This document shows, one piece after another, positions 26,460 to 29,290 of a stretch of 64,000 nucleotides of DNA. Source of the DNA: Malacoraja senta (Eukaryota). A model generated the notes under the pieces. That model saw only the letters and a list, made by a program, of their open reading frames with translations. It did no database searches and was not told the origin of the DNA. Location: NCBI GenBank assembly GCA_038087875.1, contig CM075988.1:24616001-24680000 (forward strand), given 5' to 3'. The position numbers and the translations under genes were made by a program. Within the stretch, counting starts at the first letter, position 1, and every line of letters begins with the position of its first letter.

Positions 26460-29290
26460 CATGGTTCTCTGAGCTTGTTCTGCTATTCACAAAGTTCATG
26501 GCTGATCTCTCACCTCTGTGCCATTTTCCAGCACTATTCCCACATCACCCGATTCCCTTAGAAATCTATTGAGCTGTGCTTTGGATCAATACAACAACTG
26601 AGCTCTCCGGCTCTCTGGGATTGAATATTCTCTGTGAGAGGAATTCTCCTGAGCTCAGCCTTAAACACCCTTTCCCTATGATTAACCTTGCCCTCTCGTC
26701 CAAGATTCCTCAGCCATGGGATACATCCTCTCTCCATCTAACCTGTCAATCTCCTTTAGAATATTGTAAGCTTCTGCAGGGTCTCCTTTCAATCTTCAAA
26801 TCTCAAGAGAATGCAGTCTTAGCCTGCTCAAACTCAAGTTCAAGTGAGTTTATTGTCATGTGTCCCTGAAAGGACAATGAAATTCGTTCTCTCCTCTCGC
26901 ATGAAATCCATCAGCCTTCGAACCAGCCTAGTGAATGCACAACTCTGTGGCAGGTAAAGAAGACAACATTGGACACAGTACACAGTTGTGTAAGAGCTGA
27001 TGTCTCACGGTCCCTATACAAAACGTCCTTATTTATGTATTTAAAACCTTGCATAAAAGCCAAACATTACATTTGTCCTCCTCAGCACTTGCTTCTCCTG
27101 CATGTTGATCTAGATATGCATGTGCCCAAGCATATCTGGATCCCGTTGGACATCAACATCACCACAACTCTCACCACTTTAACAAGTACTCTGCATCTCT
27201 ATTCTGTGCATCGAAATAGATCTCACAAATTTCCCATCTGCCATGACATTGGCCACTCTCTTGACTTGCCCATATCGCCTTGAAGCCACTTTGCATCCTT
27301 CTGCCTTCCCACAATCCCACATGGTTTAGAATCAGTAACAAACTTGGTAACATGATACTTCATACCATCAGCCAAATCGTTGGCGTGGATCAAGAGTAGT
27401 TGAGGCTGAAGCACCAATCCCTTTGGTACCTCATGAATGACAGCCTGCTAGACTGAGGATGATCCATATATTCCAACTCTTTGCTTCCCGTCTGATAACC
27501 AATTCTCAATCCATGGTGGTATAGTACCCCTTAATTCAATGTGGTCCAATCTTGCTGACCAATCTCCAGCATGGAATCTCATTGAAATCTATCCAAAATT
27601 CCTCAGGCACATTGCCTCAGCTTTTCCCTTTATCTGTATACTAACTACATTCTCAAAGAACACCACAGATGAGTCAAGCAGGTTTTGGTCAAACATGGTT
27701 TTTGTTTCATAAATCTGTGTTAACCATGTTCAATCTGATTTTTCCTTTCAAGGTAGCTTTTCTTGCAACCTTCATTAGAGATTGCAGTGTTTACCCTATC
27801 ACTATTATTAGGCTAACATTATTTCTGTTTTTTTCTCTCCCACCTTAAATACTGGTCATATTTGCATATTGAATTTATCAAATTTTGGAAAATGATAATC
27901 AGGACATCCATAAACTCTAAAATGATCTTTTTCAAACCTATAGAATATAGATCATAAGGGGCTTAGAATTAGTCAGTATTCAAGCTCATCAATTTCTTTG
28001 GCACTATTATTTTTGACAAATACACAGTTCCTTCAGTTCCTCATTCTCTAAATTCTCTTGATTCTCTAAAATATCTGGCAGGTTTTATGTCTCTGCTGGC
28101 CTTATTCGCCAATATAAATGCTCTTATCTTTCTCTGTAGAGGACGCACACTTGATGTTGTAAGCCCTTTTCTTCATCTTTTTATGTCTCTCGCCACTTTG
28201 CTTTCAATAGTCTATCTTGCCTCTCTTTATCAATTTCTTGATCCTCCTTTGCTGCACACTGAAATGCTCCCTGTACTCTGGCTTACTGCTATTTCTGGTA
28301 ACTTGCTATGTCCCTTCCTTTGATTTTATGCTATCTTTAATCTCACTTATCAGCCATGCATGAATGACATTTCCATTTGCGTATTTGTGCCTGAAAGAAT
28401 TGTATTTTGCAACATAAGCTTATTTTTTTCTTTAGAAGCTGCACATTGCTTATCTACTGTTCAGTGTACTCTCCCAATCGACTGCAGCCAAATCTCATCT
28501 TAATTTCCTTTACTTTGGTTCTGAAGAGAACTGCATCATTTTTTAAACAATGTAGAATTTTAGCATATTCGCACATCCCCAAAGGGTCCTTGAAATCAAG
28601 ATTATCAATTAAACAAAAAGTTGCTGGAGGAGCTCAGCAGGTCAAGCAGCATCCTTGGTGGGCAATGGATAGTTGACATTTCGGGTTGAGTGGATCGAAT
28701 TCTACCCACAGATGCTGCCTGACTCGCTGAGTTCCTAAAGCAGCTCGTATGTTTGCTCCATATTCCAACATATGCTGCTTCTTGCATCTGCAATTATATC
28801 AATTGGATATTGCATATCAATTAATCCTTTCTTATTGCGCAAACAAGGTTCAAAGTAGCCTGAAGATAGACACAAAAAAGCTGGAGTAACTCAGGGGGTC
28901 AGGCAGCATCTCTGGAGAAAAGGAATAGGTGACGTTTCGGGTCGAGACCCTTCTTCAGACTTCAAAGTAGCCTTTTCTCTCATTGGTCCTTTGACAAATT
29001 GATCGAGAAAAATCTTCCAATATACATTCTATGAACTCATCTTCTACAAAACGGCGCAAAATTTGATCTGTACATTCTACACGTAGGTTCAAGTCTCCCA
29101 TTATTACTGTATTGCCCCTATTGGGCATGGCATTCATTTCATGATTGATGCTGTGCACAATCATTATTTTGCCGTCTGTAAGTAATTCCTACCAATGTTT
29201 TCAGCCCTCGGCTATTTCTTAGCTTGAGCAAAATTGGTTCCAATTCTGAATCATAGTCTGTCAAGCCAAAATCATTTCTCACCACTGCAC
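26460..29290 (-). mobile_element. Old, decayed CR1 spanning endonuclease to 3' end
   Basis: Minus-strand remnants LKLRNSRGLKTLVGITYR, NTVIMGDLNL, VTKFVTDSK...LQGDM...WQM, colinear with the 13205-15207 ORF. Confidence 0.8.
28862..28960 (-). mobile_element. 99-bp Penelope-type unit with intact minimal hammerhead core
   Basis: Minus strand gtCTGAAGAaGGGTctcgACCCGAAAcGTCacc; 13-bp TSD ttcaaagtagcct (28849-28861, 28961-28973). Confidence 0.8.

What the first reader, a model, noticed from the sequence alone, without database searches (positions are those of the whole stretch)
28849..28973. Abundant ~100-bp mobile units built around a minimal hammerhead ribozyme
Seen: the commonest short repeat in the window carries CTGAAGA-A-GGGT(ctcg)ACCC-GAAA-C-GTC-ACC. 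This is the hammerhead core CUGANGA...GAAA...NUH with a 4-bp stem II, no stem III loop (palindromic ACGT) and a short GGT/ACC-type stem I. Cores occur at about 8171, 8603, 25495, 28958(-), 33969, 35987(-), 37527, 39820(-), 44183 and 49499(-), with older relics near 2490, 52420 and 56050. The 33969 variant keeps stem II paired (GGGU-uucg-GCCC) and keeps an NUH triplet (GUU). Several copies start at the ribozyme 5' edge, end near the same point (GTGTCTAYCTTC) and have 10-15 bp TSDs. Established: Penelope-like elements carry minimal type I hammerheads that are proposed to cleave as dimers, and an extra A between A9 and G10.1 occurs in natural hammerheads. Inference: this is a non-autonomous, ribozyme-bearing Penelope-derived (retrozyme-like) family that expanded in several waves and scatters potential self-cleaving motifs through introns.
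Basis: partly seen in the sequence, partly recalled or inferred. Interest (0 to 1): 0.72.

Follow-up and report, generated by a model that had tools for sequence, protein, structure and literature searches.

The report
Penelope retrotransposon ends carrying minimal hammerheads
A very common 100-135-base repeat in the genome of what is likely a skate or ray carries a stripped-down hammerhead ribozyme motif and is likely the leftover end of a Penelope-type jumping gene, a known kind of element; most copies have decayed and are predicted not to cut RNA on their own.

Summary
The repeat is real: 29 fragments, 4.2% of the window. It carries the minimal type I hammerhead described for Penelope-like elements (PLEs), but only 3 of 12 core-bearing copies keep every element, and native stem I is 2 bp. 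The anatomy is that of PLE pseudo-LTR ends: two 3' ends about 68 and 102 nt past the cut site (a 33-34-nt tail), 7 head-to-head pairs (5 tailed on one arm only), and 10-15-bp TSDs, also around whole inverted pairs. The same hammerhead form lies beside Neptune-type RT/GIY-YIG ORFs in 5 of 26 metagenome loci, with stem I covariation across families; one such family also yields ~100-bp copies starting at the ribozyme edge. It is not a retrozyme: no tandem arrays, and units do not begin or end at the cut site. No PLE ORF lies in the window, the genome is not held, and cleavage is untested. The least explained trait is the sharp 5' edge at the ribozyme (13 of 29 ends). Verdict: new member of a known kind.

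The parts
28849..28861 (.). Target-site duplication, copy at the unit's 3' end (13 bp)
   Evidence: 13 of 13 identical to 28961-28973
28862..28960 (-). Focal unit, short form: starts 2 nt before C3, ends 69 nt after the predicted cut site
28931..28958 (-). Minimal type I hammerhead: box CTGAAGA 28958-28952, extra A 28951, stem II 28950-28939, GAAA 28938-28935, palindrome ACGT 28935-28932, C17 28931; predicted cut between 28931 and 28930; stem I 2 bp
   Evidence: sequence; cleavage untested
28961..28973 (.). Target-site duplication, copy at the unit's 5' end
33951..34074 (+). Variant-subfamily unit 33966-34064 (5 extra bases before it) inside a 10-bp TSD, 33951-33960 / 34065-34074; all hammerhead elements kept
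33400..33462 (+). Local duplicate of the flank of the 33969 copy without the insertion, with one copy of the 10-bp target (empty site)
   Evidence: sequence; self-BLAST pair 33400-33444 / 33916-33960
35892..36102 (.). Head-to-head pair: short arm (-) starting at the ribozyme edge, tailed arm (+) starting 4-5 nt after the cut site; one 15-bp TSD around both
8507..8694 (.). Head-to-head pair, tailed arm (-) and short arm (+, core 8603); TSD 11 of 12
39722..39838 (-). Short unit cut inside the first core box; TSD 12 of 13; shares diagnostic letters with the 33969 variant
8168..8262 (+). Short unit lacking C3; 7-bp TSD candidate not above chance
20476..20609 (-). Tailed unit (C3 changed); its local duplicate 21228-21330(-) has the same downstream flank
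25440..25529 (+). Only copy that seems to run upstream of the ribozyme (pyrimidine-rich stretch, likely pseudo-LTR); breaks off 7 nt after the cut site
   Evidence: resemblance to the loose-end consensus judged by eye
28610..28783 (.). Old head-to-head pair, tail on the + arm
31652..31844 (.). Head-to-head pair without first core box, tail on the + arm; TSD candidate 8 of 9
32695..33092 (.). Two tailed arms head-to-head, 157 bp apart, no TSD found
37526..37656 (+). Tailed unit starting at C3, stem II and palindrome broken
44125..44314 (.). Tailed unit (+, core 44183) joined head-to-head to an older tailed fragment (-)
49402..49619 (.). Head-to-head pair, short arm (-, GAGA for GAAA) and tailed arm (+); no TSD found
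2457..2506 (-). Old relic
   Evidence: E 0.0014
40241..40314 (-). Older fragment without first box
42995..43070 (-). Old relic
46334..46370 (-). 3' fragment only
48950..49029 (-). Old relic
52330..52422 (-). Old relic with a CTGATGA box
55979..56063 (-). Old relic

Best explanation
These 100- and 135-bp repeats carry a minimal type I hammerhead motif and are likely the short insertion products of a Penelope-like retrotransposon (likely Neptune clade), holding only the end of its pseudo-LTR. Inferred steps: the element's RT/GIY-YIG protein, made from full-length copies elsewhere in the genome (not found here), nicks both DNA strands 10-15 bp apart and starts reverse transcription inside an uncut RNA, at one of two sites about 68 and 102 nt downstream of the ribozyme's cut site. 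Copying ends at or before the ribozyme's 5' edge, most likely because the RNA begins there. One primed nick gives a single unit with a TSD; two primed nicks give two cDNAs joined head to head, usually one from each start site, inside one TSD. After insertion the copies decay neutrally. The ribozyme is selected in the source elements, would need a second copy (ACGU palindrome) and probably the element's protein to cut, and is predicted to be silent in dispersed copies.
For: Shown: two 3' ends 67-69 and 101-102 nt after the cut site (ends bimodal; loose-end peaks at the matching places 36051 and just after 36079 in contigs of related samples). 7 head-to-head pairs, 5 with the tail on one arm only. 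TSDs of 10-15 bp at 5 of 16 loci tested, against 6 of 300 random pairs; two enclose whole inverted pairs; an empty duplicate site confirms one. The same hammerhead form lies 678 nt behind Neptune-type GIY-YIG ORFs (L005, L018) and in front of a 961-codon RT/GIY-YIG frame (L019); 5 of 26 loci hold PLE ORF pieces. In the ORF-bearing family of L018, L021 and L013 start 3-5 nt before C3 and end about 71 nt after the cut, and L013 is a short-arm/long-arm inverted pair. Stem I, which the search pattern did not fix, covaries across families (2 of 3 pairs changed on both sides; whole structure 0 of 500 shuffles as high). Literature: tail, inverted copy and 5' truncation (PMC8557442 passages, PMC3846280 passages); two internal start sites, both strands cut and extended, uncut RNA as main template, ribozyme active only with protein (PMC11167929, first half read); minimal motif, no cleavage as monomer (PMC4209133, first half read).
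Against: No PLE ORF in the window (514 stop-free segments against Pfam; a 93-protein profile and tblastn), and no genome to search. Likeness to the Neptune loci is detected only over the ~33-nt ribozyme, so the clade is inferred. Two of 7 inverted pairs have tails on both arms and 11 of 16 loci show no TSD above chance. That the RNA starts at the ribozyme edge is untested; the initiator-like and splice-acceptor-like look of the upstream bases is not shared by the L018 family. No covariation within the window. The shuffle control ignores relatedness, its rows were chosen (17 of 30), and L019, left out, has only a 1-bp stem I.
Confidence: 0.65

Rival explanations
1. A self-contained non-autonomous (SINE-like) PLE derivative: short copies are themselves transcribed from a start at the ribozyme edge and are moved in trans by the PLE protein, so they breed from short masters.
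For: 13 of 29 fragments start within model positions 1-7 and 1 runs further upstream (end rate 13 of 68 against 15 of 1478 bases at risk, Fisher p 1.6e-11); fold-back joints and loose ends pile up at 28960-28961 in 4 of 4 runs; very high density; distinct subfamilies.
Against: The same edge occurs in a family that has an ORF and a long upstream region (L013, L021; L003 and L023 break off at the same base). The loose ends at 28961 partly agree on a common upstream sequence (agreement 0.35-0.39), so longer copies exist. Subfamilies could equally come from different autonomous masters.
Confidence: 0.2
2. Same element, other chemistry: head-to-head pairs arise by self-priming or template fold-back on an antisense RNA or on the cDNA, and the 5' edge is a structural or protein-bound stop, not the RNA's start.
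For: Proposed for rotifer PLEs from palindromic junctions (PMC3846280 passages). Junctions here show short shared letters, and a second class of joints lies 3 nt behind the cut site (28928), where a structure stop would fall.
Against: Arms usually end at different 3' sites inside one TSD, which two primed nicks explain directly; a polymerase moving 3' to 5' on RNA should stall at the 3' side of a structure, while the main edge is at its 5' side (inference).
Confidence: 0.1
3. A non-LTR retrozyme: tandem units cut by the ribozyme into monomers that circularise and are reinserted.
For: Type I hammerhead; retrozymes derive from PLE pseudo-LTRs and occur in one chondrichthyan sampled (10.64898/2026.07.22.740005).
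Against: 0 head-to-tail arrays among 29 fragments; ribozyme is minimal, not canonical; units hold the uncut site near their 5' end; no pile-up of loose ends at the cut site among those listed.
Confidence: 0.03
4. A MITE or other DNA transposon whose terminal inverted repeats contain a chance hammerhead-like stretch.
For: Many loci are inverted repeats with TSDs; Rfam gives no hammerhead hit.
Against: Single-orientation copies also have TSDs; TSD length varies (10-15 bp); arms differ in length at both ends; the motif covaries across families and sits beside PLE ORFs.
Confidence: 0.02

Closest known systems
Minimal type I hammerheads (min-HHR) of metazoan Penelope-like elements (Cervera and de la Pena 2014, PMC4209133)
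   Same: No helix III loop, palindromic 15.2-16.2, unpaired base between A9 and 10.1, G10.1-C11.1 pair; mostly dispersed single motifs ascribed to truncated PLEs; pairs 100-700 bp apart on opposite strands; reported in fish, coelacanth, Xenopus and reptiles.
   Different: Stem II is 4 bp and stem I only 2 bp (as in D. virilis Penelope) against 3 bp in most related families found here; density is far above the 4,000-9,000 motifs per genome reported there (inferred from 29 fragments in 64 kb); no cartilaginous fish is named in the parts read.
Neptune-clade PLE pseudo-LTR ends (loci L001, L005, L018, L019; clade traits from PMC8557442)
   Same: Same ribozyme form, a 3' end about 70 nt after the cut site, 5' ends at the ribozyme edge, short-arm/long-arm inverted pairs.
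   Different: No detectable sequence likeness beyond the ribozyme; the L018 family's extension past the short end seems longer (about 75 nt in L013); the ORF partner of the window's family was not found.
Poseidon of Anolis carolinensis (PAc; Frangieh et al. 2024, PMC11167929)
   Same: Two internal reverse-transcription starts that define a 30-40-nt tail downstream of the ribozyme; uncut RNA is the template; both strands are cut and extended.
   Different: In PAc the ORF starts inside the ribozyme; the window's units hold no conserved start of a long ORF, as in L019, where the first Met lies 157 nt past the cut site.
Non-LTR retrozymes (PMC7229834; 10.64898/2026.07.22.740005)
   Same: Non-coding, type I hammerhead, PLE ancestry.
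   Different: Those are head-to-tail arrays, mostly with canonical ribozymes, expressed as circles; these are dispersed singles and head-to-head pairs with TSDs.

Membership tests
Penelope-like element (pseudo-LTR end) | Minimal type I hammerhead: both core boxes, extra base after A9, G10.1-C11.1, palindromic 15.2-16.2 | tested here: met
   definition from PMC4209133
Penelope-like element (pseudo-LTR end) | Optional 30-40-bp tail, often at one end only | tested here: met
   33-34 nt; 12 of 29 fragments tailed; 5 of 7 pairs tailed on one arm; definition
Penelope-like element (pseudo-LTR end) | 5' truncation with an inverted copy at the 5' end | tested here: met
   7 head-to-head pairs
Penelope-like element (pseudo-LTR end) | Short target-site duplications around the whole insert | tested here: met
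   5 of 16 loci above the chance level, one empty site
Penelope-like element (pseudo-LTR end) | RT plus GIY-YIG ORF flanked by this terminal sequence in the same genome | tested here: inconclusive
   none in the window; genome not held; same ribozyme form beside such ORFs in other organisms
Neptune clade | Cys-rich linker between RT and GIY-YIG | tested here: inconclusive
   present in the ORFs of L005, L018, L019, but these are not the window's family
Hammerhead ribozyme (active) | Self-cleavage at NUH as monomer, dimer or with protein | not testable with these tools
   no RNA run holding the stretch was listed; nearest-neighbour energies favour other dimers
Hammerhead ribozyme (Rfam families) | Match to a curated covariance model | tested here: not met
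   no hammerhead family up to E 5; expected for a motif without helix III (inference)
Non-LTR retrozyme | Two or more head-to-tail units, each with a hammerhead | tested here: not met
   definition
Non-LTR retrozyme | Canonical type I ribozyme (6-bp helix I, short helix III with loop) | tested here: not met
   2-bp stem I, no loop 3
Non-LTR retrozyme | Expressed as linear and circular monomers | not testable with these tools
   one search listed no RNA holder

The most novel reading that the evidence does not exclude
Neptune-type PLE transcripts begin at the hammerhead's 5' edge, only 100-135 nt upstream of the two internal priming sites, so the element mostly copies its own first 100-135 bases; in skates and rays these units became a self-renewing, SINE-like family of some hundreds of thousands of copies, and their short-arm/tailed-arm inverted pairs are a genomic record of twin priming from both start sites.
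Probability: 0.2. Interest if true: 0.55.

Novelty: new member of a known kind. Interest (0 to 1): 0.3.

Why it matters
It adds a very abundant cartilaginous-fish family to the known minimal hammerheads of Penelope-like elements and would correct repeat annotation in these genomes. Its real use is mechanistic: how PLEs finish an insertion and what their ribozyme does are open questions (PMC8557442, PMC11167929). A family with this many short copies lets 5' junctions, tail use and arm pairing be counted at scale, and the sharp 5' edge at the ribozyme, seen here in two distant families, was not described in the passages and parts of the papers read. It gives no support for a pool of active ribozymes in host transcripts.

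Tried and rejected
Rfam search: no hammerhead hit. Whole genome: not held. Exact family pattern: 0 matches in viral and metagenome contigs; a relaxed pattern gave 26 metagenome loci and 1 bacterial match taken as chance. No RNA holder listed for 28000-30500, which says nothing on expression. Empty orthologous sites: 4 of 24 runs laid; the joints table was swamped by repeat contigs, so none could be read. Contigs of X3, X5 and X8 run 20-26 nt into the 28958 copy, which suggests it is shared with three relatives (flanks 3-4% apart); contigs of X3 and X5 leave the window at 33927, compatible with absence of the 33969 copy; neither was seen letter by letter. Pfam on 514 stop-free segments, tblastn and a 93-protein PLE profile: no PLE ORF in the window. 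The open 44-codon frame of the unit found 1 and 18 proteins, all short read-throughs without PLE domains: rejected as an ORF start. Covariation inside the window: none, below shuffles. Core against downstream conservation: 2 of 87 against 90 of 1117, p 0.057, not significant. A stem pairing the body with the tail: 16 predicted pairs, 0 with changes on both sides. Splice acceptor or initiator as the cause of the 5' edge: not shared by the L018 family. Earlier findings: nothing by sequence or words. Lunse et al. 2017 is not held; it is cited only through a review passage. Supplements of PMC11167929 held as text did not contain the terms asked; its Fig. S2, which maps copy ends, could not be seen and may bear on the 5' edge. 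Paper searches for Penelope with skate, ray or shark terms and for Neptune/pLTR/hammerhead listed no description of this family; Repbase and Dfam could not be checked.

Full report
Host and setting. The window is vertebrate DNA, likely of a skate or ray: the peptide at 15898-16053 is 80% identical to the start of TDP2 of Leucoraja erinacea. Only that first exon is found by tblastn with the whole protein; an exon of TEN1 lies near 63000-63150 on the minus strand. Whether the 47 kb between are intron is not shown. No whole genome is held.

Observation. A profile built from 14 window copies finds 29 fragments at E<0.01, 2676 bp or 4.2% of the window; the reversed window gives nothing better than E 1.1. 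It is the most repeated short sequence in the self-comparison. When 8.1 kb were laid on contigs of 4 of the 24 listed runs, 371,000-651,000 contigs per run were laid, and summed depth over the focal copy exceeded that of unique bins about 100,000-fold; the tool warns that this is no copy number, so a genome-wide count of 10^5 or more is an inference.

The ribozyme. Of 12 copies that span the core region, 7 keep both boxes and NUH and 3 keep everything (25495, 28958, 33969). Stem II is 4 bp, helix III is the bare ACGT palindrome, and the native stem I is 2 bp; longer GGT arms at 8603 and 44183 sit at junctions with inverted arms. These traits match the minimal motif of PMC4209133 (parts 1-2 of 4 read), where a single motif did not cleave and dimers cleaved weakly; a review passage says the same (PMC6765202). 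Rfam has no hit. Within the window there is no covariation; the CG of the palindrome is changed in 9 of 24 letters, like CpG sites overall (26 of 108), and the core is not significantly better kept than the rest (2 of 87 against 90 of 1117, p 0.057). Nearest-neighbour energies put the active dimer at -6.1 kcal/mol against -21.1 for another dimer; such energies ignore core contacts, so this is weak. The copies thus look neutral after insertion.

Ends. 3' ends fall in two groups: 67-69 nt after the cut site in three TSD-bounded copies and 101-102 nt in three tailed copies. Loose ends of contigs pile up at the matching places (36051 in 2 of 4 runs among those listed; just after 36079 in 4 of 4). 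The 33-34-nt gap is the PLE tail: 30-40 bp, often at one end only (PMC8557442 passages), 34 bp in D. virilis (PMC2377424 passages), 31 bp in a rotifer (PMC3846280 passages), and shown in vitro to be the stretch between two internal reverse-transcription starts on uncut RNA (PMC11167929, parts 1-2 of 4). 14 of 29 fragments form 7 head-to-head pairs; 5 pairs have the tail on one arm, 2 on both, none on neither; there is no head-to-tail array. TSDs scoring 10 or more were found at 5 of 16 loci against 6 of 300 random pairs; two enclose whole inverted pairs (35892-36102, 8507-8694), so each pair is one event. A local duplicate at 33400-33462 shows the empty site of the 33969 copy. 5' ends are scattered in 15 fragments but 13 fall within the first 7 model positions and one runs on upstream (p 1.6e-11; the profile itself starts there, but the upstream letters of these copies differ from one another, and ends of old relics are uncertain). 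No group begins or ends at the cut site; 21330 starts near it, as one ambiguous case.

Link to autonomous elements. The exact family pattern found nothing in viral or metagenome contigs. A relaxed pattern found 26 metagenome loci and 1 bacterial match. Five of the 26 hold PLE ORF pieces: in L005 and L018 the ribozyme lies 678 nt behind a GIY-YIG ORF with a Cys-rich linker, whose nearest named relatives are fish proteins; in L019 it precedes a 961-codon RT/GIY-YIG frame. The linker marks the Neptune clade. In the L018 family, L021 and L013 begin 3-5 nt before C3 and end about 71 nt after the cut, L003 and L023 break off at that same base, and L013 is an inverted pair with a short and a long arm. 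So a family with an ORF makes the same short units. An alignment of 3 intact window copies and 14 of the 27 loci (near-duplicates, the bacterial match and L019 left out; L019 has a 1-bp stem I) gives 91.5% paired cells and a covariation score that 0 of 500 shuffles reach. The pattern fixed the core and most of stem II, so only stem I is an independent test: 82% paired, 2 of 3 pairs changed on both sides. Beyond the ribozyme the window's unit shows no likeness to these loci. No PLE ORF is in the window, and the unit's open frame leads only to short read-through products.

Mechanism. Shown: the anatomy above. Taken from PMC11167929: internal priming at two sites, cutting and extension of both strands, uncut RNA as template, protein-dependent ribozyme. 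Inferred: that this family's partner works alike; that inverted pairs come from priming at both nicks; that the 5' edge is the RNA's start. The upstream bases at 25495 and in the loose-end consensus are pyrimidine-rich and end in CAG, which fits an initiator or a splice acceptor (both consensus patterns recalled; an intron ends at helix I in D. virilis), but the L018 family shows neither, so the cause of the edge is open. Fold-back on an antisense template remains a rival.

Comparison and verdict. It works like, and by four tested features belongs with, PLE pseudo-LTR ends; the ORF link in this genome is untested. It fails the retrozyme definition (PMC7229834 passages; 10.64898/2026.07.22.740005 parts 1-3 of 5, which also says most PLE insertions are 5'-truncated with one terminal repeat). 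Subfamilies and divergences from 2% to 14%, plus older relics, support several waves. New member of a known kind; interest 0.3, owed to its abundance and the sharp 5' edge.

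Noticed in passing
window 15898-16080 (+) and 62997-63148 (-): TDP2 exon 1 has no further TDP2 exon in the following 48 kb, and a TEN1 exon lies on the other strand at the end of the window; a very long first intron, an orphan exon or a paralogue.
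   Followed up: partly
window 13287-15263 (-): A CR1-like element with 658 stop-free codons (endonuclease piece and RT) lies just upstream of TDP2 exon 1; many short 3' ends of the same family are spread through the window.
   Followed up: partly
window 32162-32400: A stretch of another repeat is skipped by contigs of three relatives (records 12, 18, 25): likely an insertion private to this lineage.
   Followed up: no
window 24040-24515: A 51-bp inverted repeat at 98% with 374 bp between the arms and a 25-bp palindrome inside; possibly a MITE.
   Followed up: no
window 44125-44314: A young tailed copy is joined head-to-head to a much older tailed fragment: insertion into an old copy, or priming on two different RNAs.
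   Followed up: partly
window 35988-36086 and L005 1400-1534: The tail can pair with the body in an 8-bp stem, and the fish Neptune family has a similar stem with a like motif in its tail; a candidate priming structure, without covariation support.
   Followed up: partly
L004, L007, L011/L015, L013, L016/L024, L022/L026: Six independent metagenome loci of other organisms also show an inverted arm just upstream of the ribozyme.
   Followed up: partly
L019 10-2899: An apparently complete PLE frame of 961 codons behind a minimal hammerhead on a 3-kb metagenome contig.
   Followed up: partly
window 59202-59749: A 17-bp G-rich minisatellite of about 33 copies at 97%.
   Followed up: no
window 2-490 (+): 163 stop-free codons at the window's start that look like a LINE ORF2 piece (likeness recalled; no Pfam hit).
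   Followed up: no
window 20426-20610 and 21178-21330: Two copies of the unit share their downstream flank: a local duplication about 750 bp apart.
   Followed up: partly
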